Origin: Lobosporangium transversale
Lineage: Eukaryota
Reading direction: 5' to 3'
Assembly (NCBI RefSeq): GCF_002105155.1
Contig: NW_019029008.1
Span: 1-64,000 of the forward strand
Length of the DNA: 64,000 nt
This document shows positions 11,833-57,919 of this stretch, piece by piece (position 1 is the first letter of the stretch; each line of letters opens with the position of its first letter). The notes under the pieces are model-generated. The model searched no databases. It was not told where the DNA came from and saw only the letters and a list, made by a program, of their open reading frames with translations. The position numbers and the translations under genes are program-made.

Positions 11833-12015
11833 TCTACCGCCCTTGTTTTAGCTAACACTAAACGTACACTGTTTCTTTTATACTCTCCAGAACTGACGTT
11901 GGTCTCACACGGACTGCCTCATAGAAAGAGAAAAAAGAAAGTCTGCCATCTATCGCGAAAAATAATCAAAAAAATCTAAAAATCAAAAACAAAAAAAAAG
12001 TGGGCTTGGCGTTAC

Positions 12016-13149
12016 ATGATGACCTCCTCGGATAAAGAGCCCATTGAGACAGGCTTTCAAGAACCTTCACTACTGTCGCCACTTCAACCTGAAGGAGAAG
12101 CTCCGCAGATGATCGTTAACCACCACCGCCAGTTATCGATACAAGCAAAGGGTGTTCCGAAAGACCATTCAACTGATGCTGTTACAAAAGCAGCAACGCT
12201 CGGTTTCGCTGGTGTTGGACATGAGGATTACATAGATGAGATCAACCATGAAGAAGACATAGAACACGTTGAAGGATTCTATGATGATGACACGACTTCC
12301 GAGAACGAGTTGCGACAGGCGAGCATGGTTGCTTGGGCTGAAACATCAGGAAATGGCAGCGATGTCATTGCTCAAAGCTCGGATGACTATGGTGATGACA
12401 TGGACGATGGTCAAGACGATGAGGATGATGAGCTTGAAGACGATGACGACAACCTCTCAGAAGATACAGCCGACACTGATGATTTAGTTGAAAACCAAGG
12501 AAAGAACGACCACCACTACAATCGACCTATTCATCATGGTCCATACCCCAAATCTCGCCGGCAGGTCGAACAATTTAGAAGGAATCAGAATCGAACGAGT
12601 GTTTTGAGGAAAAGTCGTTTAAGGTTGCGGACAATCTCCAGTGCAGGCACACATACGGATTCAGCTGCAAAACCAGGTATCAACAGTGTCTTAAACCAGG
12701 ATGGAATTTCAGAAGATTCCCCATCTCGACAGGCTTTTGTCCAGACATGTGATGATGTCGCGCTTATGCTTCGCCAAGGTAGTAATATTGTCTGTTGTAA
12801 CAGCATAAAAAAGCACGACTTATTTGGTGGCATAAAGTTCCAGTTTTAATCCCAAAATACTCCATTAAATAACCCAGGTCCATTGCAGCACGGCCTTGAG
12901 ATCATATATCGGTGGATCACACATGCCATAGATCGGAGGAGATCAGGAGAGATACCACCAGGCTGCCTTCAGACTGCCGAACAATTACAGCTTCTTGAAG
13001 GCATTTACTTTTCAACGTGGGCGAAGGAGCTACTTGAACGAAGGTAAAAAGTGCATAATGCTTTACTATTGGTGCTGGGCAGCTTCTAAAGATTCTAAAC
13101 AATTACGTCTCCACTTCCTCCCTTATCTCTACTTCTCTAATTTTTTTTG

Positions 13150-30832: not shown

Positions 30833-32800
30833 TCAAACATAGACAGGCATCAGAGCATCTAAGAAGACCGTCTTACATCCTCTTATATCAAAGTCTGAAT
30901 CTACGAACACTGCCCCCATTAATGCCTCCAACACGTCTCCAAACAGCTTGTCAAAGTGCATATCTTTCAAGCGCCTATCTGACTCTACTTCTGCATTGAT
31001 GCGGGCCATTTTTTGATGAAATCTTTTCCCTTTTCCACCACTGATATATTGACATAGTCCAAGTTGATAAAGGATTTTCCCGAAGGAGTCATTCGAAACA
31101 CTGAGCCTTGGGTGCTGCCCTTCCAAATAATGCGTCCAATATAAGACCGTGATAAAGCCCATCAACGCATCACCTAAAAATTCAAGTCTTTCGAAATCAT
31201 GCGATTGAAGTATGAAGGCTTTTTGAAGAATCGCCTTGTTCTTAAAAGTGTACCTTAAAGTAGTCTCGACTTCCTCAACATCTTGATCGCTCAGTGGTCC
31301 CGGTTCTGTTGTGCTATACAGAGCTGCGGATATTGGGTTTTTTTTGAAAGCCTTGGTTAAATCTTTCCATCGATTAATTTGTGGGAAAACACCATCCCCG
31401 ATCAAATCTTTCACAACTCGAAGAGCTAAATCAAATCCTCCTGCAGATGTGATCTTGATCAGAGCGTTTAGAAAGAACGGCTGTATTTCTTCTGGATTGA
31501 ATGCGCCTCCAGATATTTGCATAAGCCGAGTCTTAATATCTTTAATACAGTGGCTATACCACACCCGTCGTTTGGTAAGAGCACCCGGTCCACCAGGTAT
31601 GGTTACGAATGCTTCTACTGCTAGCAATAAACTGAGAATTGCTCTTCCTAAGCCTCTGCAGAATGAGATCCCGGTAAATGATATTGGCCTCAATGAGACT
31701 CCTTGTATTAAACCAAGCTTCATACAAAGAAGCAGGGCAGCGTGGCAAATCGCCATGCCTTGCTTTATGTAAAAGTCTGATTCTACCTTGGTAAAGCTCG
31801 ATTGCCACCATATAGTGATATCGCATATGTAACCCCATGGAACTATGTCTCCATGGTCCAAATGCCTAAAGCGAACATCTAATGGCGAAGCCTTGTTGGG
31901 ATAAGCAGAAGGTGAGGGTGGATGAGATCCCATGAATGAAAGAAGATAGTCCCTTGCCTGCATAAATAACGCAAAGACGTGGAATTGATCGTCGCTTCTA
32001 TGGAGCTCCGTTTCTTTAAACATCTGCATAGCCGCATTGATTTCTCTTAATGTAGCAGCATCATCGTCAACAATGGCCTTTTCTGTTGGATTAATAACGT
32101 CGTAATGATGAAGAGGAGGATGACAGCGCAAGGCAGAGCTATCTTCTCTGCTATGGGAGGTCTTCGTGCTCGATTTTACAGGGGCTGGCTGTAAGTCAAG
32201 CACACCCAACTTGTGTAATCGCTTGCAGACTTCAACTGAGAGATGGAGCTTGGCCTTGAGCTTTGAATAATGTGGACCTGACGAAAGTGACTGGAAAGGC
32301 GCTCCATCAGGAAGGAGAACACTGACGTACCAGTTGTTAAACTTGTTAGGGACTGGAAAAAAGCTGAACTGTGGTTCGAGGACGGATGGTTGTGAGCTCA
32401 AAGTAGAAGTGACTGCAGAAGTATTGAGAATAAGTATAGAAGAATTACGAGGAGGCGCAGCAGAAAAAAGCGGAGTGGTTGGGATTGTCAATGTCGAGCA
32501 GTATTCGTTCAGGAGAGACAACCCAGTAAACAAAGAAAGATAGGCACCACTGCTTGGAATAGTATACAACACGCTATCAGTGGAGATACTAACGTTAGCG
32601 CTGACAGCGCTAATGCTAGCGGAGGTATTCGAGGAAGAGACTGTAGCGTTCGCTTCATTAGCTCCATCTAATAATGATGAAGTGGAGGTGGCAGTAAAAG
32701 TAGCTGTGCTTGTTTCTCCAGAGAAGATATTGTCTCCAGTAAAAGCTCTTTTACTAGAATCAGCATAGAGATGATCTGTAGCCTTTCTTTTCGACAACAT
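30833..32800 (-). CDS. Intronless Dicer-derived RNase III protein (655 aa): Dicer dimerisation domain, degenerate RNase IIIa, intact RNase IIIb
   Basis: YTIPSSGAYLSL..LSLLNEYCSTL...VLLPDGAP...KAK..VEVCKRLHKLGVLD (Dicer_dimer-like); LRYTFKNKAIL, FERLEFLGDA and KLFGDVLEALMGAVFVDS (RNase III signature). Confidence 0.85.
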   Translation of the reverse strand: MLSKRKATDHLYADSSKRAFTGDNIFSGETSTATFTATSTSSLLDGANEANATVSSSNTSASISAVSANVSISTDSVLYTIPSSGAYLSLFTGLSLLNEYCSTLTIPTTPLFSAAPPRNSSILILNTSAVTSTLSSQPSVLEPQFSFFPVPNKFNNWYVSVLLPDGAPFQSLSSGPHYSKLKAKLHLSVEVCKRLHKLGVLDLQPAPVKSSTKTSHSREDSSALRCHPPLHHYDVINPTEKAIVDDDAATLREINAAMQMFKETELHRSDDQFHVFALFMQARDYLLSFMGSHPPSPSAYPNKASPLDVRFRHLDHGDIVPWGYICDITIWWQSSFTKVESDFYIKQGMAICHAALLLCMKLGLIQGVSLRPISFTGISFCRGLGRAILSLLLAVEAFVTIPGGPGALTKRRVWYSHCIKDIKTRLMQISGGAFNPEEIQPFFLNALIKITSAGGFDLALRVVKDLIGDGVFPQINRWKDLTKAFKKNPISAALYSTTEPGPLSDQDVEEVETTLRYTFKNKAILQKAFILQSHDFERLEFLGDALMGFITVLYWTHYLEGQHPRLSVSNDSFGKILYQLGLCQYISGGKGKRFHQKMARINAEVESDRRLKDMHFDKLFGDVLEALMGAVFVDSDFDIRGCKTVFLDALMPVYV

Positions 32801-34610
32801 GCTTTTCGCAAGAAAAAACAAACAAAAGCTATTAAACTACTGAAGCGATAAGTACAATCAATACCCTCAAAGCCTTCACCAACAAGATAAAGAGAAGCAA
32901 GGGAAAAAAGAAAAAAAAAAAAGTGAGAGAGCAAAAGTCAAAGTAAGATTTGAGCGTAGAAGTGATTGAAAGAGAATACAACAATGATGAACAGAGAAAA
33001 TAGATTGAAGTGAAGGAAAATAGGAATGAGTTTCTTTCCGCTGAATAAATTTGTGACCATCATAAATAAAAAAATCATGGCACTCTGTTGATTGGAGCGT
33101 TTTTATGGAAAATGACGCTGCGTGGAATATTCCATCTCAGGAAAGCTACTCCAACTTCTGTCCCTTTGCCACCATTTTGGAATTATGATATTGAGTTGAA
33201 ATGTAGGCAAGACAGTGCATCAAGCATACCATGCAGACAAACTCTGTTTGAACTGGGTAATAAAAGAGCACAGACCGCAGACTGAACCTAAAGTGGACAC
33301 TCCAACGAATAATGTAAGCGTACAAGTGCATGGCATATACAGGAGACCAAGCCTTTGGCTCTGATAATAGAATCCCTCATCAGAGTTTATAGTGACAATG
33401 GAGCATGTGCTAAGTACATATTTTTTGATTTAAAAGGAGAAGAAAAAAAAAAAAAAAAAGGATTAGTGAGAAACCCAATAACTAGATGACCCTCAAATGG
33501 GATATCTCTTGAGTCCGATTGCTTTCGAGCGAAAAACCAGCTTAAAGTGGCGCATCCTGGGTTATATGCTCGTATGTGGACAGGCAACGAGTCGAGTACT
33601 CTTTTTATTTTTCATCCTTTTAGCTCCCTTGGCTTTGTTGTTCGACTAGTTTACTCAACCTCATCAATTTAATGTAAAAAACTTCGCGCCAAATGGTTAT
33701 ATTGGTTTTCTCTATTTAAGAGCTTTCAGTTCCCACTCTCCCTCTGTTCATTCGTGATTAGCTCTCTACTACATCTTTGGTACCAAACATCACCTTATTG
33801 GTATACTATATGATGTACCTCTCATGTCTAGTTTATCAAGCTCTAAGTTAAAGCCTCATTTATAGATGTGAAGCAATATTGTAAAGTACAATGTAGACCT
33901 TTGATTCTTATCTCTTTCTAGGGCACTGCAGTAGTTAAACAACTTCTCCATCTCTCAGCCGTTACATTCAGATTGATACCATCATAGTCTACAAGAGTAA
34001 CAACCTAATCAGTGCCGGCCTTGCAAGCCACCCAGTTCTGATTATTATTATCATGGGCATGATTGTCCCTCCACTGCTGCATGACTATAAGCCCCTGAGG
34101 ACAACAACCCAAAAAATTCTGTTAAATAAAATAGCGCAACATCGAGGGTTGCCATGACCGAGGTATGGTGTCGTAACACTAGGTACGCTCTTAACCTAGA
34201 GCATAATCCGTATTCCCGAAAGACTATACCCTATTGTCTTATCTTTTATATCATCTACTAAGGTTCGATAATACAAATGAGGAGAGGCAGAGCGCGCTGC
34301 TACTGCAGTGCGGCTTCCCTGGTCAAGACTAATGCGGCAATCCCTCAAGATCTTCTGCCACACCTTTGCGAGGCGGCGGACCAAACAGGACTGATGACAA
34401 GGCGACGATCTTTATTTCAAATCAATATTCGTAACAACTTCTAAATGTTTAAAAATTATCAGCATCACTTTTAAGCAAGAGCAGGGATGGAGGCAACTTC
34501 AATAGTTTTAATGATCGGCTTTATTTCTGTTTGGCCTTATGAGGAAGCATGAAGCTACATCATCGTTTGCCCATTTTTTTTTTAGCCTTCAGGGACACGC
34601 GTTTAATGGT

Positions 34611-40882: not shown

Positions 40883-42477
40883 GACTTGAAAAATGTGTAA
40901 AGGAAATGGAGTTCGCGAAGAAATAAACAAAAAGAGAGAAGGCGAAGTTTAGCAGTCGTCCTTGAAACTAAATTAAGGGTTGTTGTGTCTTTTTGTTATT
41001 AGTGTTGATGTTGTCTTGGCGACTGTTCGATGGCTGTTGGTTTCCCAAACCTTTCTTGATTTAACCGTATTTAGCAGAATTAGTGAGCATCCCTTGAATA
41101 GCTGCCATCCAGAGAGGCTACTTAGAATGGACAGGATTCACTGTGTTGTTCAAAAACAATAAAACTTGGCCGTAAGTCTATTAATTCTCAAACCATGAGG
41201 CAAAAATGCCTCTGGACGCTTCAATAGGATTGTGGCGTGCTTTAGAGGCGTAGAAAAGACAGCATTGAGCAATAGAGGATATAGGATCTGTTCTTTGGAG
41301 GCAAACTTTTTGAAGCTACGCCTTTTGCTGGTAAAAACACAAATGGCTCCCGTTTTCCGCATACTTCAGCGCTTCCACAATTCAAAGGCTGTGACGTAGC
41401 CATCAAATATACACATCCCTCGCAAAAGTTCAGGTGTGATGCAAAGAGTACTGTTTAAGGGACTTAAACCATATGGAGTCTGAACAGTCGCCCTTTGGTC
41501 CACAAGTGTACCTCAGCATGTCAACATGGACCGCCACAAAACTATCTGTTGCTTTCCATTAACACCGCTATCTATGTTGTTAAAGAATGCTAAGGGTTAT
41601 GTTAAGGGCAAGTCCCATGGATCGTGGCTTTTGCTCTAAGCATGATTGCAGACGCAAATTGTCAGTTGCTACTCTAGTTTTTGCTGTGATTGGCCATTTT
41701 TTGAATATTGGTAATGAACAAACACGGAGGTGCCTGGATTGTAGACAGAGTTATTGTTATAAACATTACTTTCATCTACTCAGGAGCAACGATCTGGTTT
41801 TCTTATGCCATATGTGAAAGAGAAATAATGATTTTATTGGACAAGTGCATACTTGACAGCAAGGTGAAAGCAACTAAATATCAATTGACAGTAATGAATT
41901 GTAGGGTTGTTTGCTTATTGCAATCGAAGTCAATGAATGGACTGTAGAAAAGCCAGAGAGGCAATGGTTAATGAGAACATGAGGTAGATGTTAAAATGAG
42001 CTCATTCAACAAAATGCCGTGTTTAAAAGGTTGGAACGCGCTTCCATTTTGGTACGAAGAGGATTTTAGGAGAAAAAAACTTTTTCGTGAAGAGGAATAG
42101 TCACCCTTTGCATCTTTATTAATTCAATGTTATTTGGCTGAATGAAGGTTTCAAAGCCCTTGCGTCTATTGTGGGCTAGCCCCTCTAAACGTTTTTGGTG
42201 AGAAAAGATGATGATGGGAAGAACACAATGAAGTCGGCGCAAAACAAGGTCAAGGATAGTCGGATGATCGGACCATTCGGATAAAAAAAAAAAGAAAAAG
42301 GAAAGCACGGTGCTTCAGCGCAGAAGCGTTGTTCTTGATTTGACCCAGTCTAGATACTTGCTTTGTACATGTTTTTACGCTTTGTTCAAGGAGGTGTCAA
42401 AGACAAAAAAACCTGTGAACAAATTATGCAAACAATCGTATAGCGATCAGTTCCAGATTGTGCATTCGCATTACATG

Positions 42478-42483
42478 TATAAA
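42478..42483 (+). promoter_or_regulatory. Putative TATA box of beta-trefoil gene A
   Basis: TATAAA is followed by a pyrimidine-rich leader and a 5'UTR intron (gtacaa...ttag) ending 10 nt before ATG 42701. Confidence 0.45.
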
Positions 42484-42700
42484 TATCCTTTCACTTTCCC
42501 TGTTACCCTTTTTTTTTATTTTGCTTTTTTCTTTCTTCCTCAAACAACTACATTGTTATTCACCATCTCTTCAGGTACAAGGTGCAGCTGCCCTGTTTAT
42601 TCTCATTTTTCAGATGAAAAAAAAAAAAAAAAAAAAAATTGCCACATCACCTTTTTTCATCTCATCATATCTCATCATTTTTTTTATTAGCACGTTAAGT

Positions 42701-43261
42701 ATGTATCCTTTAGTAGGTTTCTTGGTCATGTCTCTGCTCTTCATGCTTGAACAAGCCCTTGCGGTGTCAATCCCTAATGGAAATTATCGTATCCAGCAAG
42801 GCAATCGGTATTTGAGTGCTGGAAAGTACAAGTCAGATTCAATTGCGTTCTTACTCCCCGGAGACGACGAGTGGGAACAAATCTGGAGAGTTGAAAATGA
42901 AAGCGATGGTACTGTCACCATTACCAGTCCAGACACGGGGCGTTTCCTCACACTGGGCCAAGGAATTGCGCAACCACACGCATACGTGATGTTTTCGAGA
43001 TTTTGGCAGACATGGAAGCTCGAACCAGGCTCTGATAGCGGTTTATATGCTATTGCCTATCCTGGTGGCCCCGTGCACGGAAATACCCTTGCTATTGATC
43101 TTTCTCCAAATGACCGCTCCACTAATCGCCTTCACCTCGAAGTCGTTAACTCTGAATCAAGCCATGCCAAATGGAGCTTCGAGCGCATGCACGGCGATGG
43201 CAAATTATCATCATGCGGCCCTGAACGATCGCAGCCTCTCTTCCGTGTACAGAAAGTTTGA
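42701..43261 (+). CDS. Secreted beta-trefoil (ricin-B-like lectin / fungal inhibitor-like) protein, copy A, 186 aa
   Basis: Signal peptide ending ALA; G-x-Y-R-I, QIW, QTW and KW repeats of the QxW type; single coding exon. Confidence 0.8.
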   Translation: MYPLVGFLVMSLLFMLEQALAVSIPNGNYRIQQGNRYLSAGKYKSDSIAFLLPGDDEWEQIWRVENESDGTVTITSPDTGRFLTLGQGIAQPHAYVMFSRFWQTWKLEPGSDSGLYAIAYPGGPVHGNTLAIDLSPNDRSTNRLHLEVVNSESSHAKWSFERMHGDGKLSSCGPERSQPLFRVQKV

Positions 43262-43890
43262 TAGTTGTAGCTACTGTCAATTAGGATCTCTTCATGTAAA
43301 TTTTATTTTGGCACATACCAATGGTGCGTTTTGACAATGGCAACATATATTATGAGAATAAAGTATGAGTGCACTTTCCCCAGGAAATGGGGGAATAAAG
43401 ATATGTAATGCATAAAAAATCGATTAAAGGAAAACCACATTCCATTTCCCACAAGGACCACCAACCAAAAAAATGATTTTTTCTATATGCCTATAAACAT
43501 GTATCTTGTACGCGTCACTTTTTATTAAATTTCGAAAATACAGTTCGACACCTAAAGGCTCTTTATGAGGCGTTCAACAAACTTAATATAATCCCCACCA
43601 AGACGTCAATGGATGACAACACGTCGTTCATAATAGACTTACGATTACCACTTCAGCCTTCCCCTTTTTCTAACCCATGAGGAGCGCAGACCAAACAATC
43701 CACATCTACATACTATCCATTCCACTAACGGCACTCTTTCAGAGACATTCACACTTCGGGTCTGTGCTTTTAGTCTCTTGGCATTGTGTGCTTCCTTTAT
43801 TCTTTAGTGCTGTGCTATAATGGTGCATCTTCATATAGCTATTTAGGCTGTTGGCTATTTTTTTTTTTTTTATTTATTTGTTTTTTTCAG

Positions 43891-44044
43891 GTGGTTCGCC
43901 CAGCCGCCTCTTGAATGCTATTCTTGTATTAGTGTAGCCAGCTCTTGCTACGACTCTCGGTAACAGACCTTACTGGATTGAACAGTAGGAGCAGCTAATT
44001 GGCATCGGAGCCTGCTTATTCAACCTAATGGCAATTAGTCTCAG
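43891..44044 (+). pseudogene. Truncated beta-trefoil pseudogene, copy C
   Basis: After an intron acceptor: GTG start, frameshift, then ...LV*PALATTLGNRPYWIEQ*EQLIGI...LIQPNGN*SQ, which aligns with the N-terminus of copies A and B. Confidence 0.65.
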
Positions 44045-44103
44045 CGCGTTTCAGGCGGCAGTAAGACAAACAGGACAAAGCAAGGAAAACAAGTTTAATT
44101 TTC

Positions 44104-44136
<33 letters not shown>

Positions 44137-44255
44137 TATTATTATGATTTTAATAATAATGTTATTATTGGCATTAGTATTATCAACATAACTCTAAGCT
44201 AATCTTTAAAAATCGATTTGGAAGTCATCAGGGTATTGTTAGCTGAAAGGCCCAA
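44039..44255. repeat. Dispersed degenerate repeat, copy 1 (homologous to 63776-64000)
   Basis: 44195-44255 versus 63938-63998 match at 46/61 positions ungapped by manual count; the tctcagcgcgtttcaggcggcagtaagac and ggacaaagcaaggaaaacaagttt blocks also match. Confidence 0.8.
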
Positions 44256-45045
44256 TATCTACACTAAAACAGAAAACAAAGGAGCATTAGCCCTTCCCAT
44301 AAGAAAATGTGGGTCCGAGGATGATATATGCACTGTGCCGCCTTCCAGCGCCTATTTCGGGTAACAAGATGTGCATGTGGCCGGCCAGTAGCGGTCAAGA
44401 GATAGAAGAAAGATGTATTTGTAATTTCTTTTTTTTTATTTTTTTATTTTGCTTCTAATAGGAGTATCAGCGACTATACGAAATGTTAAATTCATCACGT
44501 CTGCTTCTGTCTCAACTAAAGCGGTACTAAGTACCAATGACCTTGCTTCTCTCCATTCAAGTCCTTTTAACCATAAAAGACTGTAATTGGACTCGAACTA
44601 CTCAAGGGTCTGATGTACGTTTAATCTACAATAGGCTATAAAATTATTTACGGAGTATACCCTATCTTCGTATAGGAATGTAATCCTCGTAGGTCGTCTT
44701 CCTGCCTTCCAGCTGTTTTCCATTGACATTCGTTTTACCTATTGCTATGCATTAGGCAACCGAACAACTTTTTGACTCTTCCATGCGATGAAAGTAAGCA
44801 TTTCCGATGTATGAAAGGCAATAATTTCATTTCAATCATCCATATTAGTCAGTTCCGTTTCTTAGATATGGTAAAGCAACAAGGATATTCCTCCGGCGTT
44901 AAAAGTAGGGTGGCATTCAAAAATGTCGAAGTCTACAACGAGGCTGCTGCTCATAGAATGAATATATGGCTCTTGTCCACCACAAATGGCAGTAAGGGAC
45001 ATCAAAGGAATATGGGTCAGCACGAGTATCGTTAGAGCGAGCCCG

Positions 45046-45078
<33 letters not shown>

Positions 45079-46017
45079 GCTGCAGCAATACGCATATCAA
45101 TAATTATGTCCTTATTCCTCGTGGGCGATATGAAATGAGTATCGCAACATTTACATCTACAATACTCGAGCATACTACTCGTAATATAAATGGAATTTCA
45201 AAGCTCAACGTCGCTGTTCTGGCGTTTTTTATCTCTTTGGCCTAATAGCGTTTTTAAGTGAATTACCTGTTAGGAGTTTTTCCCAATAAGGCCACCTATT
45301 GTTATCTAAAATGTAATATTTATTTTGAGGAATAAAGCATAGAGGTTTTTGCGACCAGGGAAAGCGGTGAGAAGAGAGCGGCATCTTAAAAGGCTTGTAA
45401 GGGAAACGTCTAATTTCTTATTCTTTTGATCTTTCGTATCAACCATAACGACGTTTTTTGCCAAGGAGGGAGACATCCGAACGATCTGCAGTCTAAATAA
45501 TTCGGTGGAGTAACTTAAATCAGGAAGGAAAAAAAAGGATAGATAGCAGAGGTATCCCCAAACCTTCTCATTGGTTTGGAAAATATATTGCATCTGATCT
45601 CTTTCTGCACCAATTGCTGAATTGAATCAACCTTGTGTGCACTAGGGGAGAGTACTTATCAGTGGTCGATTACGCGGGTTCATCTTAAAAAACAGGATAG
45701 GGAAGCATGAATTGGGTTGAGTGAACGTTAATGTATGGCCTATGGTAGACTGAAAGAAAAGGTGCCACTTCCTCACGCAAAAAAAGAAAAGAATGTCTAC
45801 TCGACGAGATCATTTAAATATCTCCCTGTTCTCCTTTCAACTTTCCCTTCTCCAAGCATCTCCTACTCTTTTCGGAAACATTGACATCTCAGGTAGGTGC
45901 TTCCGCCTTCCAAATATTACGTACTCTGTTTGGCCTTTACTACTGTATAGTGGAACTAAAGTTTAAAACTGGTGAGTTTTGACCTTCTGGTACTTTTATT
46001 CTTTTCTTTTTTCAGTA

Positions 46018-46506
46018 ATGGCCCGTATAGCCGTCCTATTTGCTACCTTTTTTGTCTTGCTGCAAGCGGTCCTTGCTGCTGCCCTAACCGACGGCCTCTA
46101 TCGTATCAGACAAGGAAGTTTACAACTTAGTACGGAAAAAGCGAAGCCGGGATCGCCGGCGGTTTTAATGCCCGACAATGGAGATTTCGAACAAATCTGG
46201 CTCATCCAGCACTTTAAAGGTAATAGCGTCATCATTTCGAGCCTGGAGACAGGTTGTTACCTCGGGCCGCATGGCGAAGCCTACCCTAACGCTATTGTGG
46301 TCGCTGGTAAGAAGTTCCAGATATGGAAGCTCAAGAAGAATAAGGAAGAAGGCACATACAGCTTTGTCTATCCTGAGAAGTTTAACGGCGAGGATATTTT
46401 TATCGGTGTCCTGCCTCTCCCAATCGTTCCACCTCAAGTTGCTCTACAATTAGTAAAAGGACCAGGAGGTTTCCCAACCTACTGGGAGCTTGATAAGGTT
46501 GAATAG
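46018..46506 (+). CDS. Secreted beta-trefoil protein, copy B, 162 aa
   Basis: Signal peptide MARIAVLFATFFVLLQAVLA; DGLYRIRQG, EQIWLI, QIWKL, PPQVALQ, YWEL; 5'UTR intron ends 2 nt before the ATG. Confidence 0.82.
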   Translation: MARIAVLFATFFVLLQAVLAAALTDGLYRIRQGSLQLSTEKAKPGSPAVLMPDNGDFEQIWLIQHFKGNSVIISSLETGCYLGPHGEAYPNAIVVAGKKFQIWKLKKNKEEGTYSFVYPEKFNGEDIFIGVLPLPIVPPQVALQLVKGPGGFPTYWELDKVE

Positions 46507-48690
46507 TTTAAATCTTGCAGCTCTGAGAGAAGCATTCCACACTTCGCGCTTTAAATTGAGTTGAATAAATGGTTGCTTAAAATGAAAAGATCAGGACTGC
46601 CCAGCCTTACTTTTTTTTTTTTTTTTCAGCATAAAGATGCGCTCCTTAAAAGATTGAGTGCCTTGAAGAACCGAATACGAACAAATTGTTCTTACGATGC
46701 TCCTTTACGCTATTAAGCCTTTTTTTTTTTTTTTTTGCCTCACTACTCGAGATCTAGCATCCATCAGAAGCAGCGGTTTTTGTACGCATAAGCAATGGCT
46801 CGTGGTACACGAATACATTATTTATTTATTCTACCTCTCGTTTCTGTTCACTGCTTCGAAAGTACAAAGCTTACAGTATATATTAGAAAAAGCACCTTAT
46901 TTTGGTACGGCAAACATGACGTTCTGCTCAGGACTTGATGCACATGGATACATGAAATAATCAATGACTCTTAACAAACATCCATCGTTTCCTTCCTGCC
47001 TCGCCACCATAATCAACTTTATTAAGCCGCACGGACCAATGCTTGTAATGTATTACTTATTTTAAGATTCAACGTGTTAGTAGTCTTCCCTTGATCGGAA
47101 TTAAGTTATTCACCACATTATCATAGCGATTGCTCCCGAAGATATGCATAGCCATTCATCCCGCGAACGACTGGCCAGAGGCTTGAGGGTCCCGCCAATC
47201 GAATCATAGTAAGCACGTCAATGGAAAGTGAGGGAGCGCAGGTTACGCAAAAAGAAATACTAATTACTCCATGGCCATGGCCAAAATCCTCTAACCCCTG
47301 TCAAGAAGATGGCGACTAAGGTATTATATAGCATCACTGTGCTGGGCAGGGATAGACTTAACAGAGCACGATGTGCTCCGTGTATGTGCATATCCCTCAC
47401 AAGGCTTTCCTAAACCAAGTTCTGAGAGTCTTGTTATCCGTGATGATTGATCTTTTGCAAATAGCATCTTTTCATCGTGATTTTGCGCCTCACGGACCCC
47501 TTGGGTTATCATTTCTAAATCTAAAGCTTCCAGTAGAGGTGTACGTTACTATCTTTTTTTTGCTCTCGATACAGACGAAAACAATCGGAGTTTCCAGTTG
47601 GAGCAGGTAATAAAATAACAATGAATCAAGCGAAGTGCGTGCGTTTCCTCTATATTCCCTTAACTAATACCTGTATAATTATGTTGGGTTGCTGATAAAA
47701 AGGAGCTCCACAAAAATAATGATGGCAGCAAAGGTATAGATGAAGAGGAAGTGGATAAAAATGTCGAAGAGAGTTACAATGTTAATGGCAATGAAGGTGT
47801 TGTTAGCTACCGAGTACCAATTATGACAATTTCTCATCACTATCCCTCAATAATCAGCAATACATTAATGTACGACATTTTGGTTGTTTTACGAAGGATT
47901 GGGCACACTTGAGCAGGCTGCAACAGCATTGCGTCGCTCTATCGTACCGTTCACTGGGCATACAAGAGCCATGTGCAGTGCCAAACAAGCGTTCTTATAT
48001 CGATGAAAGGCGATGGGCAAGTGGAGGTTAGATAACTATCAGAATTGAGTATATTTGATGCCTTATGTCAGAGGACATCATGAGGAGCGAAAGTGCTGCT
48101 GAAGTGCATTTCCCTAAAGTCAAGGGGACCTTTGCAACAAATATGACATCGCGAGGGATAACATAATGGACATGACGTTAGCGCCATCTTCTGTCATGTC
48201 AATGGATAACAGGGTGTTGCGATTAGCAGTCATTTCATATGGATTTTTGCTGTAATAAATTTCTTTATCTTTTTTATTTAACGAAGCTCCTTGGATCAGA
48301 ATAAACATCTTTCTTTCGTTCTCGTCACTTATTAGGATCCTAGCATATTTCAGAGGCTATGACATGGCTATAGAAGATTTGCATCAAAACGGCTCCTTCA
48401 AAGAGTCGCAGGAAAGATTACGAAACATACCATTAAACATTCTTATTCGATGATTTTTACGAGGAAACAAAGGGAGAAGGCTTTATTTATGCCTTCGTCC
48501 CCCCAATGCACGTGATATTGCGCAACCTGTTCTCCTTAATAAGAAAAAAAGGTCCGATGTGAAAGTGAAAGAGGATGTCAAAAACAAAGATGAACTTTAT
48601 TGGTATACAGGCTTGACTCCTTTTTATAGGGTTATAGGATCAAGTGCTAGTAACCTGCTGCGATGTGCTACTGTATAATCGCTTGGGTTA

Positions 48691-48888
48691 TTAAACAGTA
48701 CAGATGCAAACCATGTTAGAATCACAATGTCCTCCATGAATATACCCTTGCGCGATGCAGGATGCAGTGCAACAGGCATTTGCGCCGCCCCACCACTCAC
48801 AAGCTTGACAGCTGGTTCTCTTCTGTAACATTGGATTCGCCATAGTGGTCGCAACCAAGAGCAGGGCGATGATGTATCCTTTCAGCAT
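48691..48888 (-). CDS. Defensin-like prepropeptide (CS-alpha-beta fold), mature peptide 41 aa with 8 Cys
   Basis: Signal peptide, short pro-region ending in a Kex2 site KR, then TSCQACEWWGGANACCTASCIAQGYIHGGHCDSNMVCICTV containing CxxxC, GGxC and CxC; TATTTAAA upstream at ~49062-49069. Confidence 0.88.
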   Translation of the reverse strand: MLKGYIIALLLVATTMANPMLQKRTSCQACEWWGGANACCTASCIAQGYIHGGHCDSNMVCICTV

Positions 48889-49602
48889 TTTAGGGAGAGT
48901 GGTGCAATGTAGGTTCTGCAGGGGTTCTTATGAGCGTTCTTGGCTTGAGCGCTGAGGAAGCGAGGCGGAAGACTCTTGTGATGGATTTTGTTACACTGCG
49001 GAGAATAGAGGGCGTTGGTACGGATTGAGCGTTGATACGGATATCCTAAAGGTGCAACCCCTTTAAATACTTTTTATGAACCTGGTGTTGAGGTGGCAAC
49101 ATCGAGAGACAATATCAAGGATGACAACAGCAATGGAGCATATGGAAATCAAAGGATTGTGGAAGGAGACCATGGAATGCTCGAAAAAAAAAAAATTAAG
49201 GTATGCTAGAAAAAAGTCAGGAGAAGCTGGGAACCACTGACACCTTCTTAGTCTTCTTTTGTTATTTCAGCAAAAAAGTCGCCAAGTTCATTCTGTACTG
49301 GTGGAATAAGCTGTATATTCCAATTTGGACCTCTAAGCAATCCAGGAGAGCGGCAAAATTGAGTGAGGGATGTCCAAGGCCGAGTATCAAATGTGAAAGT
49401 AGATTGGTATTCCTGTATAATGAGACGTATTTGTAATCTGTGCAGAGCATGTCCTCAGAATGTGAATTATCATACTGAAGTTCCATTCTAAAAGTGAAAA
49501 CGTGCAGACCAAGTCCATGCCTAATCAAATGAAGCTCCTGTGCGAAGACTATTTTACATGCATATTCAACTTTTATTTTATTTTATATTATTTTCCTCAG
49601 CA

Positions 49603-50057
49603 AAGGCTCCATCTACCATATTCCTGCTTACCTTCCTTATCTCATTACAAGCGTCTCTTGCTAATGTCCTTTGTACTGGGTAGCACGGGAATGGCAAAGC
49701 CGAAAATTCCTGCTTATTTTTGAGGAATATGGAAATTTCGGCCAAGTTTGGTACATCGGATACATTGGCGATAATCAAGTTACCATTTTGAGCACAAAGA
49801 CAAGCCGCTACCTCAGATTGCATGAAGATGCTTATCCCTTTGCCTATATAGTCGCTGGCAAGGGTTCATAGAAATAGAAGCTTAAGAAAAGCGAGGAAAG
49901 TAAAGGCCACTAGAGCTTTGTCTACCCGGAGCAGGTTGTATACAAGGAATGAGCTAGCAACCTCTCACCCTTCGAAAACCATCCTGTTCGTGTTTCTCTG
50001 ACGCCCTAGATGGATCTTTAGGCACGACGACTCATTAGAGACTTGAGAGGATTGATT
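49603..50057 (+). pseudogene. Beta-trefoil pseudogene, copy D
   Basis: ATG->AAG in front of the signal peptide APSTIFLLTFLISLQASLA; GNFGQVWYI..VTILSTKTSRYL..AYPFAYIVAGK; several TAG stops and frameshifts; ends TTH*RLERID. Confidence 0.85.
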
Positions 50058-51576
50058 ATCCTGCATTCATGCGGCTCTGAGAGATCTCTCGCTTCCACTC
50101 CCAATTGATAAAACTGGGACTAAGGATCAAGGATCTGGGTTTTCTTCGTTGATAGTCTTTATTAATAAAAACGATAGCTCATTTCCAATGTCACTCTATA
50201 TAGGATCTGGAATGCCTTTTTTTACATTTGTTGTCTGGTTTCAATGCATCAATGCTTATATTATCCATATATTCCATGCCTATAATATTGAACGCTCCAA
50301 AAGCCCATATAGATAAATGCCGCCTATAATCATAATGGTTTACTCCTTTGCAAGGCCCAGCAAAATTGAGCAAATTTTTTTTCTTAATGCTATTTACGAT
50401 CTGTTATTCATTATGATTGATTTTCTAGATAAATACCTCCACCGAAGCTATCAATATTTGTGCGTATAAACAATGAGTCGTGGCACACGAAGGCATTGTA
50501 GCTATATTCGTAGTGTTAGCTCACCATTTTATACGCATGCAGCACCCTGTTGCTACATATCAGATAATAGGCGGTGAGTGCCGGCTCCAAGGGAGCCCAA
50601 CACAGAAACTCGCGTCCATGTCTCGACGATTGTGTTTTTGCTTGTCAGGATTGATACGATGTAGAGCTTGGATTATTAACCCAGCTGGACAATATTTAAG
50701 CATACTGCTCGAATCGCGAAGGACTGGATATCAAATTTCATCACCATTATTCTGGAGTGACTCGCTGATTATCCAGGCTTCGCATTTTTTGGTGGACTAT
50801 CTGTTGTCCATATAACATTGAACTGTGTTCAAATAGTATTCTCCAATGAAGGGTAACCTTACTCCAAATATGATATTTACTTATTACAACATTATATGTA
50901 TCTTCCTGGCGGTATTAAAGGGCGAAGGTAAGTGAGTGTTCTATCCATTATCAATAATTCTTTCTTGTAAGGGATATAGATGAATCCATAAGCCTGGTGT
51001 GTGCCGCGTCGTTAGGCTCAAGGGAGTTTTTTTTGATTGGCGACGGCATTTTACTTAAAAAGCACATTTGGGAAATAAAGCATCAATTGGCGATTGACGA
51101 ATAAACCAACTCATGGAGGTTTGGGTGGAAATATTTTAAAAAGATCAATATGAGTATTGCGTATGATATCAAATGACAATATAGAATTGTTGCATTGAAT
51201 CTTCACGGGCCCATGCGTCACAGTTGTCAAAAAAAAGCTAATTAAAACTTGGTGGTCTAAATAGAAGCAAAAGCAATATGTGAAGTAAAAAAAAAGACAA
51301 TCTCCCTCATGTCACGCTCCTCATCCTTTGTGATGATCGTCCTTACTCTAAAAGAAGACTCGTAAAAAAATTATGCCGAAGATATGCTTTTTTTGTTTTT
51401 TTTTTTTTTTTAGAACGCCGCTAATATCAGAAATATCATCATCTTGGGCATTATTTTCAACTTTCAGACATTACGTGTTCTCTATAACTATTTGATGAAC
51501 CATATATTCATATATTCTATTGTCGCTGAGTGTCGTTAATTTATTTTATTTTTAGTCTCCTATTTCCCTTTTAGCA

Positions 51577-52193
51577 ATGGCTCGCTCAGTTGCCTTCTTG
51601 ATTAGTCTTCTTGCCTTGTTGCAGACGACTTTTGCTGCTACCCTTAGTATGGGCCGTATCAAGCGAGGTGAACAAGTGATTAGTATAGAAAAGACAAATT
51701 CGGCATCACCTACCTTCTTGATCCATGGTGGTGATTTTTCGAAACAAGTCTGGCACATCCAGCAGATAGTGAATACGCCACTATCTCGAGCCCAGAGACA
51801 GGTCGTTACCTTGGGTTGTAGGGTGGGGCCTACCCTCAAGCCTTAATAGTCGCTGGTTATGCGGAACAGAAATGGGGATTTAGGGAGAGTGAAAGAGAGA
51901 AGGGCTCTTACAACTTGACCTACCCTAAGGAGCTTAGGGGTAGCGATTGGGTAATCAGTGTCTTACCCGTCTATGCCTTCCCACCTCGTATTGCTCTGCA
52001 ATTAGGACATGGACGTCAAAGCCTCACGACCCATTGGAAACTTGAGAAGGTGAAGAGTTTGTTTCCCGTGATTCAGGAAGAATCCCGTAGTACTAAGCCG
52101 AGTGCCAATGCTCCTATTATATATAATATGTCTATGTTCCTTATTCATGCAAATGCAAATTCATGCATATTTAGATCAAGCGAATTGAATTGA
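51577..52193 (+). pseudogene. Beta-trefoil pseudogene, copy E (less decayed than C and D)
   Basis: Intact signal peptide, frameshift at ~51765 and in-frame TAG at 51819-51821; otherwise collinear with copy B (ATISSPETGRYLG, QKW, FPPRIALQ, THWKLEKV). Confidence 0.85.
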
Positions 52194-53079
52194 TTTGACT
52201 CTGCATGATTTTTCGAGTTTAGTTAAGCAATTGAGTTTTTTTTTTTTGTTACATCTGTCGTCAACAAAAGAATCTCAAATGCTCATACAAACAAAAACAA
52301 AATGTGACACCTCTCACTTCTGTCCATTTCATATACACAAAGCTTGCAGCATTAAAGAGAAAAAGGTGGTGATGGACTCTGGCGGATGGAATATCAGAAT
52401 AATTTGATATACTCTTTAGTATAAACAAGAAATTGTCGTTTTTTTTTTTTTTATCCTGCCCACATGGTATGTTCTCCGTGGCTGTTTGCGAATGGTCCAA
52501 GAAAGCGTGGGAGCTGCCTGAACAAACTGATCACTGCTTCACAAGGTCCTTTGTCTTAAAAAAAGAAAGGAATTATGCTCCCACGCGCACTACCACTGTC
52601 TGTGTTCTTTTAGGGCAATCAAAGCAAACTTTTCCCTTTCCCTATTAGGCATTGTTCATTCCTCATATTTATCTTGTGGTATATCGGTCGCATTGAGTAT
52701 CCGAATAATCATTTCTATTCAGATTTATACAGATTCGACCATCATCAGCGTCATATCGCCTGTTGGAGCATATAGACGCCATCTTGCATTCAAAGGGGGT
52801 TATTATACAGAAAATCATGATTTCTCCCAATGAAGAACAGTAAGCTCATTTGTAGAACGTTATCTTGGAGGAATAAAGGATATACATCGCTGTCATCAGG
52901 CTTTTTCAATACTTGAACAATAAAAAAAAGAGAAATAGCTGTTCATTCACGAGAGTACTGCCACCTCGGAGCTACCCCATGGATACTCTACTCAGATCAA
53001 TGTAGCACCATAGAGAAACAAATGTGAGGCGAAAAATGTCCATGCTAAATACCAACTTGTTCATTTTTATTGACTCATA

Positions 53080-54835
53080 TCACAACTTGTTATCCTTCTT
53101 CTCCCTTGCAAACCATCGAGCTTGATCCCTTCCACGCTTGACATCTACTTTAATTATTACGAACGCCCCAAGGATGAGCAGGGCTAGTGGGAACCAAAAC
53201 GCTTTGCGATAATCACGGGTTGCAGTATAGATCCCGCCTGTGGCCAACGGTCCGATCCTTGTCATGTGTAAATGGGAGACAAAAGGAGGAGTTGAACGTA
53301 AGAATAAGAAATAAGCTATGAGACAAAGCGATAAATAAATGAAGTAGTGAAGAGCTTACCATGATGATCCTCTGTCTGCCAAAAGATACAAAGAAAACCA
53401 TTCGTTCTCATCTCCCTCTGGACACAGCTCTGACAACATGGCCCGAGTAGATGCGTAAAATGTACCAACGATCAATCCTGTATAGACATAACAAAACCAT
53501 CCTTCTCCTTTGTGTCGCAGGCCGAGGTTATCAGTGAGGTAAGGGACGATGGCCAGATAGCATAGGAATACCACATAAAACCCCACCGTCATCAGGATCA
53601 TAGTTCGAGTTGTTAGGGACCATGCTTTGCGGACCCACATTAAGATATAAATTCCGACAGTAGCGGTCAAGGCCTGTACCACTGCTATAATAAGCGAGTC
53701 CGTGTGAGTGAATCCTAATTCTCGGTACAGTATGATCATTAAAACCGAAGGAATTGTGCTGATTCCATCTGAGAGGATGAACCATGCAAACATGAACTTG
53801 AAGATCTCAGGCAATTTGCGGAATGCGCGTAGAGTATTATATGCTGATTGTTATGGTTAATATTATTAACATTAGTACTTTTTGATGCTGCCCCCAAGTC
53901 AATTAAAGGAAACGGATGATCTCTATAAATATAAAAAACATACTCTTTTTCCATGAATACAGCACCCAGTTTGTTCCCTTGGGCAGAGGCTCATTCGGCC
54001 TTGGATCCAACCATGGGGCGATAGCCAGCATTCCTACGAGCCACAGAAGACCCGTAAACGCAATGGCAATTGCCAGACTAAGAGTAGTTTGCCCCATGCT
54101 CTGTGATATACCAATACAGATAAGGTTTGTGAGGACTAGCCCCCAAGCGGTAGCTATATTTGTATATGAAGCCATATCATTTATCTTTTGCTCCTCAATT
54201 TTGTATGCTACTTGAGAGGTTTCTGCAGCCAAAACATCTGGATGAGCTCGGCCGTAAAGGGGTAAAAATGAGTAAGAGAAAACGCCACAGACATTGAACA
54301 GTGTCCAACCCAGAGGAGTCAAGATTGTGGCAACCCAGAGAAGTGAAGGCTGCTGGAGGACGAAAAACCCAAAAGAATTGACGCAGCCAAGAACTGAAAA
54401 AACTATCATTAACGTTTTCCTGTAAGCTAAAGTATATGATAAATATTAGTAATAGTGATAAAGCAGGATAAAAAAAAAAAGGGACGAACAGGTTGTTACT
54501 GCTACTGTTACTACTGTAATTGCTGGTGGTTACGAGCATGATGCAAACTTACAGCCGTAATCAGCGACAGCTGAAATGGAAAGCGAGACAACGAAACATA
54601 GGACGGAAGACAGTGACGATATATAGAGTGAGATTGTACCAGGCTCCAGATAATGACCAAATACCGACGTTACACATTTGAACCCTGGGACTGTCGTGTC
54701 ACAAGGAATGGAATGATCATGCGCTTCCACCCCAATCTTGGAGGCTGTGTCTTGGATCAACAGAGGGATCAATGTTATCCCCGCAACGTAGCCGTACCCA
54801 CAATGCCTATCGGTTTATCAATTTCATATTTACAA

Positions 54836-55937: not shown

Positions 55938-57919
55938 CTACTCATTGCTGCTTCTCGACGTGTAAGTATCCACTTCATCCCTGCAGCTTGCACAAGTACG
56001 CACCAAGTCCTTCACTATCTTTCGGATCTTCCGTTTCTTTGCAGAGCCTTGACTAGTCTTCTGTCTGATGTGTTTAAGGCCTTCATGACTGAGTACTTCG
56101 TGATCTCCTGCTAAACGCTTCAATATTTGAAAGGTTACATCCATATCCATATCGGCAAGCGGTGAGCTTTCAGCTTCAGCAGGGCTGGAAGTAGCACTAC
56201 TAGGTTCTGCTACGTATTCGCTGCTTGTCCTATCTCCCACGGTCCTCTCCTGTTGCAGGGCTTCTTCAACTAGCTCTTGCTCATCCTTTTTCTGTACTAC
56301 TTCGAAATGCCAGCCTTTGGTCATAGAGACCTCAGCGATCAACTGCTGGAAGTATGCTCTCTCTTGATTTTTGTATCGGTTATGTCGAATAAGCGGCCGC
56401 ATTTCTTCATCGACTGCCGGCCTTTGACAACGGAGCCGCTCACGCATTTCAGTCGGAAGGATTGGCGTTTTGGCAAAACAGTTTCGAAGCGTATGTGGCT
56501 TGATGTGACTCCATGCCTCAGGGATCAGTGCCCATGCTTCGCCGTTAGAAATAGATTTTTTGTTGCCAAAATTCAACGAGATACGACTCCGCGTCAGCGC
56601 ACAACGACATCGACATGCGCGTTCCAGAGGAAGGGATCCCTTGGAGGCATATCCGAATACAGCGACTACCAAAAAACTCGACTCCAGTAACTCAGCCTCT
56701 CGATGCTGGGGTGATAAGCGTATTCAAGCGGACGTTCTTGGAATTGCTTACTTCCGAAACAAGGAGAAGAAGTGTGGGTTGCGAGAGCTCATCATCAAAC
56801 TTTTGCAACCACTTGATGAATATACATCGATTCATCCATCCTGAATCCGCTTTCTCCATAGTCATTTTCAATGCCTTATCTTGTTCGACTTGTCTCGCGA
56901 AGTGTTTGGCTAACGAATATCAAACAAATGCAATTGTCACGAAAGGAAATAAGAAAAAATAACAGCTAACATGGACTATTACATTCAATGTATTACCGAT
57001 GACTAATGGCTTTAATGAAGTCATTGTATTGGCCATAGAGAGAGAAGTGCCAGAGGCATTGATGCAAAATAAGATAGACACCTTGCATTCTCTGAGAGCT
57101 TTGGCACCAGTTTTGGAGGTTGGTATCGTGTAGGATTTGGAATCCAGCTCTTTCAAATAGAACCCTGTTTCATCGCAATTAAATATATTATCGGGGGTGT
57201 ACTCAGCGCAGATCTGGCGAATTTTTTCGAGCTCAGGTTCAATTGCGTCCAAGTCAACCGAAGCTGCTTCTCCATGAAGTTGACAATATGAAATACGATG
57301 GCGCTTCTTAAAAGTATCGAACCAATAAGCCGAAAATGATGGCTGTGCTTCAGATAGTGTATTTCCTGATTCATCTTGAAGATCACAGAGAACCGTGTAT
57401 GTTACATTGGCTGCGTGTTTGAGCATCCTGCCGTTGATATACCGACTTTTCTTTCGTTGTCGCTGTATCCAGTAGTAGAGGACTTCCTCGAGAACCACGT
57501 TTTTTTCGCTCAACGATATAATGTGAGCCCGGGGGGTATACCTCGGCTGCAGCTCGAATTTTGTTTTCATTATGAAGTAATCGCTGAAAGCTACTTTTTG
57601 GAACGTATAACTCCTATTAAGCATCCGAAAGATTTAGGAGAAAGCTTGACTGGGAGGCAGTCTTTCCGCTGTTCAAGGTAATGATAAATATCCAATAGTT
57701 CAACTTGTTTTTCAAGGGAGTATGAGACCCTAGACATCGGGATCTCAAACTGTTTGGGGTTTGGGAGCAAAATAACAGCGGACATGTCATTTTTTCGGGC
57801 ACTCTTTAGAAGCTCACTATACCTCTGTTCATGAGTGCGGTCGAGCTCTTCCAGCTCGCGCTTTGTATATTTTTTATCATACTTAGTGGGGAGGAGAAGG
57901 AGTTTTTTATTGTTTGCAT
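55938..57919 (-). pseudogene. Disrupted pogo transposase (DD38D) with frameshifts, one intron (56996-56910) and an internal inversion
   Basis: LEEVLYYWI, FSAYWFDTFKKRH, GEAASVD, IFNCDETG, GWMN..F.KWL and AW...LRNCF lie on the minus strand; DSASAH...LPKNSTPVTQPLDAGVISVFK lies on the plus strand at ~56585-56760. Confidence 0.9.

What the first reader, a model, noticed from the sequence alone, without database searches (positions are those of the whole stretch)
42478..52193. Secreted-protein island: birth-and-death array of five beta-trefoil genes around a defensin
Seen: about 10 kb with no housekeeping genes and five co-oriented paralogs. Two are intact (42701, 46018) and three are decayed to different degrees (43891, 49603, 51577). 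All have a signal peptide and an intron acceptor just before the start codon. A defensin gene lies on the opposite strand in the middle. Known: fungal beta-trefoil proteins include anti-nematode/insect lectins and protease inhibitors, and many of the characterised ones lack signal peptides. Inference: a fast-turnover cluster of secreted defence or interaction effectors. The three pseudogenes appear only as fragments or not at all in the ORF track.
Basis: partly seen in the sequence, partly recalled or inferred. Interest (0 to 1): 0.7.

Follow-up and report, generated by a model that had tools for sequence, protein, structure and literature searches.

The report
Fungal secreted beta-trefoils with hypervariable loop
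A soil fungus carries a tandem row of two intact and three decayed genes for small, likely secreted beta-trefoil proteins beside a defensin-like gene; one surface loop, nearly fixed in Streptomyces relatives, differs most among the fungal copies and likely serves as a protease-blocking site, which is untested.

Summary
Between a kinesin and an ATG22 gene lie five co-oriented paralogs: A and B intact, E and D broken, C only a 5' remnant. An 8-cysteine anionic defensin-like gene lies on the other strand. B folds confidently as a beta-trefoil (pLDDT 94). The closest named relatives are Lobosporangium transversale paralogs, and the copies form a lineage-specific expansion. The wider family has no characterised member that I found. 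It has hydrophobic leaders in Mortierellaceae and none in the named mushroom and Streptomyces members. That loop is nearly invariant in 22 actinobacterial loci but is the most variable of 100 four-residue windows among six Lobosporangium paralogs. Best reading: secreted, loop-type protease inhibitors whose target range is retuned by duplication and loss (0.45). Against it: B has Pro and A has Asp at the presumed P1 position, and no binding or expression evidence exists. Linkage with the defensin is untested and may be chance.

The parts
42478..42700 (+). Copy A upstream unit: TATA box (42478), predicted non-coding exon and 5'-UTR intron 42575-42690
   Evidence: Sequence; motif scan; not confirmed by RNA
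42701..43261 (+). Copy A, intact: hydrophobic leader (~1-21), beta-trefoil, 22-aa tail; the loop lacks the Pro-Pro, Asp at the presumed P1 column
   Evidence: PF14200 27.0 bits, cut-off 25.6; Atlas model TM 0.80-0.87 to ricin-type trefoils; alignment
43737..44030 (+). Copy C, remnant: eroded upstream exon and intron, no ATG, about 45 decayed codons, rest absent
   Evidence: nhmmer E=8.7e-6 and 4.9e-9; marginal at protein level
45813..46017 (+). Copy B upstream unit: TATA-like box (45813), predicted 5'-UTR intron 45893-46015
   Evidence: DNA identical in contigs of runs X3 and X4; not confirmed by RNA
46018..46506 (+). Copy B, intact: hydrophobic leader (~1-21) and 141-aa beta-trefoil; beta10-beta11 loop at residues 132-139, Pro at the presumed P1 column
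   Evidence: AlphaFold2 with 32-row alignment: pLDDT 94.3, pTM 0.88, 12 strands; fold searches
48691..48888 (-). Defensin-like gene: leader (~17 aa), short propeptide ending KR, 41-aa mature peptide with 8 Cys, no Lys or Arg, 2 acidic residues
   Evidence: PDB insect-defensin variants E=3e-4; Pfam Defensin_2 15.2 bits, below cut-off 20.4; composition
49603..50056 (+). Copy D, pseudogene: no start codon, 3 frameshifts, 5 stops
51577..52193 (+). Copy E, pseudogene: intact start and leader, one frameshift, one internal stop; the trefoil-homologous part ends ~52055 and the frame runs on to 52193. Public gene model P0008 skips the broken part as a 74-nt intron

Best explanation
This is a tandem, lineage-specific array of two intact and three decayed genes for likely secreted single-domain beta-trefoil proteins, which are predicted to act as loop-type protease inhibitors through an exposed beta10-beta11 loop. 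SHOWN: five paralogs with graded decay, a beta-trefoil model, hydrophobic leaders, a Lobosporangium-only clade, loss of the CNL-type sugar-site residues, and a loop that is conserved across fungi and Streptomyces but most variable among the Lobosporangium copies. INFERRED: the protein is exported, and the proline-braced loop docks substrate-like in a protease active site, with the residue before Ile as P1 (Arg/Lys for trypsin-like, Leu/Phe/Met/Tyr for chymotrypsin- or subtilisin-like enzymes). Duplication would let each copy change the loop and hence its target, and copies that lose use decay. The likely targets are digestive or secreted proteases of grazers or competing microbes. A and B carry atypical loops and would hit other proteases than trypsin, or have drifted. 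The defensin is a separate, likely antibacterial secreted peptide that sits in the same fast-changing interval.
For: Fold: 12 strands, with the loop between strands 10 and 11. Nearest solved structures include the protease inhibitors cocaprin 1 (Z 18.4, rmsd 2.4, 130 aligned) and clitocypin (top Foldseek E 9e-7; 21-24% identity). Sugar site: Asp in 0 of 51 rows and Asn in 1 of 53 rows at the columns that align with CNL Asp20 and Asn46. Loop: first Pro in 23 of 23 non-Lobosporangium hits and 22 of 22 actinobacterial loci; presumed P1 is R/K in 20 of 22 actinobacterial loci, and R/K in 11 and L/F/M in 5 of 23 other hits. The spacing P1-x-x-Pro-Pro matches the Bowman-Birk loop CTP1SXPPXC (PMC7760496). 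The four residues around P1 rank 1 of 100 windows for variability among six Lobosporangium paralogs (2.22 bits against 0.24 in actinobacteria), and 1 of 120 among the five full-length ones. Cocaprin uses the symmetry-equivalent beta2-beta3 loop against papain (PMC9104457; equivalence of turns 2, 6 and 10 in PMC9062101). Nine Lobosporangium rows form one side of a branch, 91/86. dN is below dS in all three unsaturated pairs (0.45/0.92, 0.65/1.15, 0.59/1.22).
Against: The window's own intact copies fit worst: B has Pro at the presumed P1, and A has Asp and lacks both prolines. Pro stands there in 6 of 31 family rows. R/K richness at that column (48%) only ties for fourth among 131 columns. The hits were collected with B as query, which favours the Pro-Pro motif. 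The Bowman-Birk P2 Thr, P1' Ser and disulfide are absent, and the loop peptide found no PDB match. By profile and by Z the lectins MpL, CNL and RSA are as close as or closer than the inhibitors. The same turn borders the third sugar site of ricin-type lectins, and its Asp is kept in 22 of 22 actinobacterial loci and in A. The variability rank rests on 5-6 sequences, was computed after I had noticed the variation by eye, and could reflect relaxed selection. Only 2 of 48 neighbour ORFs scanned from the 22 actinobacterial loci are Pfam peptidases.
Confidence: 0.45

Rival explanations
1. Secreted lectins with a non-canonical site: the beta10-beta11 turn lines the third-repeat sugar pocket, and its variation tunes glycan specificity against nematode, insect or microbial surfaces.
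For: Best single-domain profile hits are MpL (E 2e-9), CNL (5e-7) and RSA (8e-7); best Z is CNL, 19.6; 25 of 32 rows hit PF14200 at E<=0.01, against 6 of 32 for Inhibitor_I66; third-repeat Asp and Gln are invariant in 22 actinobacterial loci.
Against: First-repeat Asp and Asn equivalents are absent family-wide; the third-repeat Asp is Gly in 5 of 6 intact Lobosporangium rows, and no row shown has the Asn. Cocaprins are also close to MpL and CNL yet bind glycans only very weakly (PMC9104457).
Confidence: 0.25
2. The loop is a protein-binding or self-association surface with a non-protease target, such as a microbial surface protein or a partner trefoil.
For: The loop is hydrophobic and proline-rich; P1 Pro or Asp in B and A does not suit standard serine-protease inhibition; fungal trefoil lectins and inhibitors bind each other and form dimers (PMC6930499).
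Against: A single variable, often basic residue between conserved neighbours is what substrate-like loops show; a self-association surface would not be expected to vary most among paralogs (inference).
Confidence: 0.18
3. A family in decline: the loop lost its role in this lineage, varies by relaxed selection, and A and B are on their way to becoming pseudogenes.
For: Three of five copies are dead; paralog P0012 has deleted the loop; A has lost the prolines and sits on a long branch.
Against: At least six full-length paralogs 25-52% identical remain intact; dN is below dS; the loop is more variable than any other stretch, not merely as variable.
Confidence: 0.12

Closest known systems
[quoted passage not shown]
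   Same: Fold (Z 18.4, 17% identity; profile E 5e-8); tandem paralogs, three within 4 kb; inhibitory loop at the symmetry-equivalent turn (PMC9104457)
   Different: Cocaprins lack a signal peptide; in the profile alignment cocaprin 1 has no [RK]-I-aromatic-Pro-Pro loop; no pseudogenes are mentioned in the parts read
CNL, MpL, RSA (mushroom ricin-B-like lectins)
   Same: Closest fold and profile matches; QxW in the first repeat
   Different: CNL is cytoplasmic (PMC6930499); its Asp20 and Asn46 equivalents are missing here
Mycocypins (clitocypin, macrocypin; Pfam I48) and mycospins (cospin, cnispin; Pfam I66)
   Same: Fold; clitocypin is Foldseek's top hit at 21-24% identity; weak I66 hits in 6 of 32 rows
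   Different: Neither A nor B reaches an I48 or I66 cut-off; clitocypin uses loops beta1-2 and beta3-4 (PMC9104457), and the beta1-2 turn of B is a 2-residue hairpin. Reactive loops of cospin (beta2-3) and cnispin (beta11-12) are recalled, not read
Bowman-Birk inhibitor / SFTI-1 binding loop
   Same: Spacing P1-x-x-Pro-Pro with R/K or hydrophobic P1 (PMC7760496)
   Different: Unrelated scaffold; no disulfide, no P2 Thr, P1' Ile instead of Ser; analogy only
Malpisins (Mortierella alpina defensin-like peptides) and insect-type CS-alpha-beta defensins
   Same: Leader, basic-residue propeptide end, CxxxC and CxC framework, 41 aa; several malpisins are neutral or anionic (PMC4165938)
   Different: Single copy in this window, whereas malpisins form their own tandem arrays; two extra Cys in the N-terminal part; no close relative found

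Membership tests
Ricin-type beta-trefoil fold | 12 strands in three repeats with hydrophobic core and QxW-type motifs | tested here: met
   12 strands, pLDDT 94.3; Z 19.6, rmsd 2.3, 135 aligned to CNL; A passes PF14200
CNL/MpL-type galactose lectins | First-repeat Asp (CNL Asp20) and Asn before QxW (Asn46) | tested here: not met
   Asp 0 of 51, Asn 1 of 53 rows; A and B have Ser and Glu
CNL/MpL-type galactose lectins | Glycan binding | not testable with these tools
   Needs a glycan array
Mycocypins (I48) / mycospins (I66) | Pfam family score above cut-off | tested here: not met
   A: I66 13.7 bits against cut-off 27; B: no I66 or I48 hit
Cocaprins | No signal peptide | tested here: not met
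   A and B have leaders with 10-residue hydropathy 2.8 and 2.9 (hydropathy only, no SignalP)
Canonical (substrate-like) serine protease inhibitors | Exposed loop with variable P1 between conserved neighbours | tested here: inconclusive
   Pattern present family-wide, but B has Pro and A Asp at that column; loop geometry could not be measured because no coordinates are returned
Canonical (substrate-like) serine protease inhibitors | 1:1 inhibition with slow P1-P1' cleavage | not testable with these tools
   Needs enzyme assays
Bowman-Birk family | Disulfide-closed CTP1SXPPXC loop | tested here: not met
   No Cys, Thr or Ser at those places (motif from PMC7760496)
CS-alpha-beta defensins | C...CxxxC...C...CxC framework with secretion leader | tested here: met
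   Pfam Defensin_2 is below its cut-off
CS-alpha-beta defensins | Antimicrobial activity | not testable with these tools
   Needs an assay
Birth-and-death multigene family | Lineage-specific duplicates, intact and pseudogenised copies side by side | tested here: met
Co-regulated defence cluster (trefoils plus defensin) | Conserved linkage or co-expression | not testable with these tools
   No genome held; related contigs of 1.6-2.1 kb only; no RNA holder listed

The most novel reading that the evidence does not exclude
An undescribed family of beta-trefoil serine-protease inhibitors that converged on a disulfide-free, Bowman-Birk-like P1-x-x-Pro-Pro reactive loop at beta10-beta11. It is shared across kingdoms by Streptomycetaceae, mushrooms and Mortierellaceae. 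Mortierellaceae made it a secreted protein, and Lobosporangium is diversifying the reactive site copy by copy in defence islands that also collect defensins.
Probability: 0.33. Interest if true: 0.72.

Novelty: new variant of a known kind. Interest (0 to 1): 0.52.

Why it matters
The fungal beta-trefoil defence proteins in the papers I read are cytoplasmic mushroom proteins, and protein-based defence in early-diverging fungi is little studied (own knowledge). A secreted family with one sharply defined, hypervariable loop gives a cheap and direct test: a few purified proteins and one alanine mutant. If it holds, it adds a new reactive-loop position and a convergent loop design to the fold, assigns a function to an unannotated Streptomyces gene family, and offers a natural panel of P1 variants. 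Tandem arrays of fungal defence genes as such are known (cocaprins, malpisins), which caps the score.

Tried and rejected
Word-index homolog searches found only the query for B (1 of 27 candidates) and A (1 of 380), and no candidate for the defensin; relatives came only from the full HMMER scan. Single-sequence folding of B failed (pLDDT 33). The one complex prediction (trypsin with P0005) returned no model, so there is no verdict on binding. Expression: no RNA holder was listed; the possible RNA run X5 holds 8% of the island's words but laid nothing on B, which is no proof of silence, and which gene it holds is unknown. Synteny: ATG22 relatives in metagenomes were on contigs of 1.6-2.1 kb (3 loci). 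The loop peptide matched nothing in the PDB. NCBIfam gave nothing above cut-off. Cospin and Kunitz inhibitors were not among the 50 rows shown, which does not exclude them. Actinobacterial neighbourhoods are not conserved: no neighbour family occurs in more than 3 of 22 loci, and 48 of 226 candidate ORFs were scanned by Pfam. Direction of cross-kingdom transfer is unresolved: named Mortierellaceae form one side of a branch (93/82), actinobacteria do not (17/0), and there is no root. Assembly error as the source of the lesions is unlikely given their number, but D and E were not checked against reads. The public model P0008 was rejected as a working gene: its intron is homologous to coding strands of B. 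Earlier findings of the scan: nothing in four look-ups. No paper describing this family was found; the library lacks most subscription papers, and the cospin paper was not held.
Full report
Setting. The window is eukaryotic DNA with introns; no whole genome is held. The interval lies between kinesin exons (37.5-40 kb) and ATG22 exons (53.4-54.4 kb). Of 119 further ORFs of 45 codons or more in 41300-53100, none reaches a Pfam cut-off. The closest named relatives of copy B are Lobosporangium transversale proteins, and one of them (P0008) maps letter for letter onto copy E and downstream DNA, so the organism is that species (Mortierellaceae).

The five copies. A (186 aa) and B (162 aa) are intact. 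A frameshift-aware alignment, read with X at breaks, shows E with two lesions and D with eight plus a lost start. C is marginal as protein but clear as DNA: E=8.7e-6 with a profile from the other four, next hit E=1.2, extending over the upstream exon and intron. It stops after about 45 codons. Pairwise identity among A, B, D and E is 27-42%, and dS is about 1 or saturated, so the duplications are old; 'fast turnover' holds on a long time scale only. All five have an acceptor-like AG just before the start position; donors were found for A and B only. Contigs of DNA runs X3 and X4 are identical over B, and either may be the window's source.

Fold. With a 32-row alignment B folds at pLDDT 94.3 into 12 strands. 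Best matches: CNL (Z 19.6), RSA (18.7), cocaprin 1 (18.4), MpL (18.2); clitocypin leads by Foldseek E-value. The Atlas model of A matches the same fold at TM 0.80-0.87. The fold alone does not separate lectin from inhibitor.

Family. The full HMMER scan with B gave 42 proteins at E<=0.001, including A and B. I left out 6 long multi-stretch hits (897-3076 aa) unfetched. Of the 34 fetched, alignment A1 omits the gene model of E, three two-domain proteins and two fragments, and adds two cluster members. Twenty hits were looked up: 6 Lobosporangium, 8 other Mortierellaceae, 2 basidiomycetes, 1 Streptomyces, 3 without an organism. All 12 named Mortierellaceae records with an N terminus have a hydrophobic leader (10-residue hydropathy 2.4-3.7); the 4 named basidiomycete and Streptomyces records do not (at most 1.1) (hydropathy only). 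A genome scan with P0042 gave 24 loci, 22 of them full-length genes in Streptomycetaceae and 2 weak partial hits that I dropped. Their neighbourhoods differ, and three of the scanned neighbours are a relaxase or transposases. Nine Lobosporangium rows form one group (91/86; six intact rows 98/92). Three of the outside paralogs are on a contig of the same length as A and B, so the family likely forms several small clusters on one scaffold.

What marks the family. The columns aligned with CNL Asp20 and Asn46, which bind galactose (PMC6930499), hold Asp in 0 of 51 and Asn in 1 of 53 rows. The conserved surface feature is instead the beta10-beta11 loop, S-[PL]-L-[RK]-I-[FWY]-P-P-[RQ]. In the 22 actinobacterial loci the residue before Ile is Arg 18, Lys 2, Asn 1, Asp 1; the search patterns did not include this loop. 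In 23 other non-Lobosporangium hits it is Arg 8, Pro 5, Lys 3, Leu 3 and one each of Phe, Met, Gln, Glu. The spacing equals that of the Bowman-Birk loop CTP1SXPPXC, where P1 Lys/Arg means trypsin and hydrophobic P1 chymotrypsin (PMC7760496). Turns 2, 6 and 10 of the fold are symmetry-related (PMC9062101), and cocaprin uses turn 2 against papain (PMC9104457). Among six intact Lobosporangium rows (P0012, which lacks the loop, left out) the presumed P1 is Pro (B), Asp (A), Arg, Arg, His, Thr; in broken E and D it is Tyr and Glu. The four residues around it are the most variable of 100 windows, yet almost fixed in actinobacteria. Reactive-site hypervariability after duplication is the known pattern of protease-inhibitor families (own knowledge).

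Against. A and B themselves have the least inhibitor-like loops. R/K frequency at the column is not exceptional, the query biases towards Pro-Pro, the sample is small, and the test followed my noticing the pattern. The same turn borders the third sugar pocket in ricin-type lectins, whose Asp is kept in actinobacteria and in A. An alternative register with the Arg after Pro-Pro as P1 is possible, but that residue starts strand 11. No structural or experimental evidence of binding was obtained.

Defensin. The 65-aa product has a leader, a KR site and a 41-aa mature part with the CS-alpha-beta framework plus two extra Cys, and no Lys or Arg. It is single-copy in the window. Defensin expansions in Mortierella alpina are known and form their own tandem arrays (PMC4165938). 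An anionic fungal defensin with antibacterial activity exists (PMC6181372, listing only). Nothing here shows that it works with the trefoils; I put functional linkage at about 1 in 3.

Verdict. A real birth-and-death array of a likely secreted, uncharacterised beta-trefoil family. It works most likely as a loop-type protease inhibitor set (0.45); lectin 0.25; other binding role 0.18; decline 0.12. It fails membership tests for CNL-type lectins, I48, I66, cocaprins and Bowman-Birk. New variant of a known kind; interest 0.52.

Papers seen: PMC9104457, parts 1-2 of 5 of the text; PMC6930499, PMC4165938, PMC7760496, PMC9062101, PMC11872807, passages; PMC11291939, passages and two supplements searched for five paralog accessions and PF14200, with no hit; PMC6181372, search listing. 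PMC11872807 shows that secreted beta-trefoil effectors exist in plant-pathogenic ascomycetes, so secretion of this fold in fungi is not new in itself. The cospin and cnispin loop positions are recalled. The malpisin alignments are figures and could not be seen, so an 8-Cys malpisin may already be described.

Noticed in passing
window 46507-46545: B's 3' UTR holds an eroded copy of the C-terminal tail that A and P0005 still encode (Cys-Gly/Ser...Glu-Arg); D has it too. Several paralogs lost the tail through an earlier stop; its role is unknown.
   Followed up: partly
window 51577-53010: Public gene model P0008 turns pseudogene E into a four-exon gene by skipping the broken part and adding two downstream exons; likely an annotation artefact.
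   Followed up: yes
window 55941-57633: Tc5 (pogo-like) transposase remnant, PF03221 E=8.5e-11, about 4 kb from the array.
   Followed up: no
P0016, P0025, P0028: Two-domain members of the family, one named from Actinomortierella, with tandem trefoil domains: possible double-headed forms.
   Followed up: partly
L004-L025: Stand-alone, mostly leaderless-looking 143-147 aa gene in 22 Streptomycetaceae loci, 65-90% identical to P0042, in unrelated neighbourhoods, some beside mobile-element genes; upstream start sites were not checked.
   Followed up: partly
P0034: Unnamed member with a twin-arginine-like N-terminal extension, suggesting a separate gain of export in bacteria.
   Followed up: no
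window 30836-32836: Dicer-like gene piece with dimerisation and RNase III domains.
   Followed up: no
window 2758-3306, 5202-6269, 11980-12846: Long ORFs without a Pfam hit at E<=0.01.
   Followed up: no
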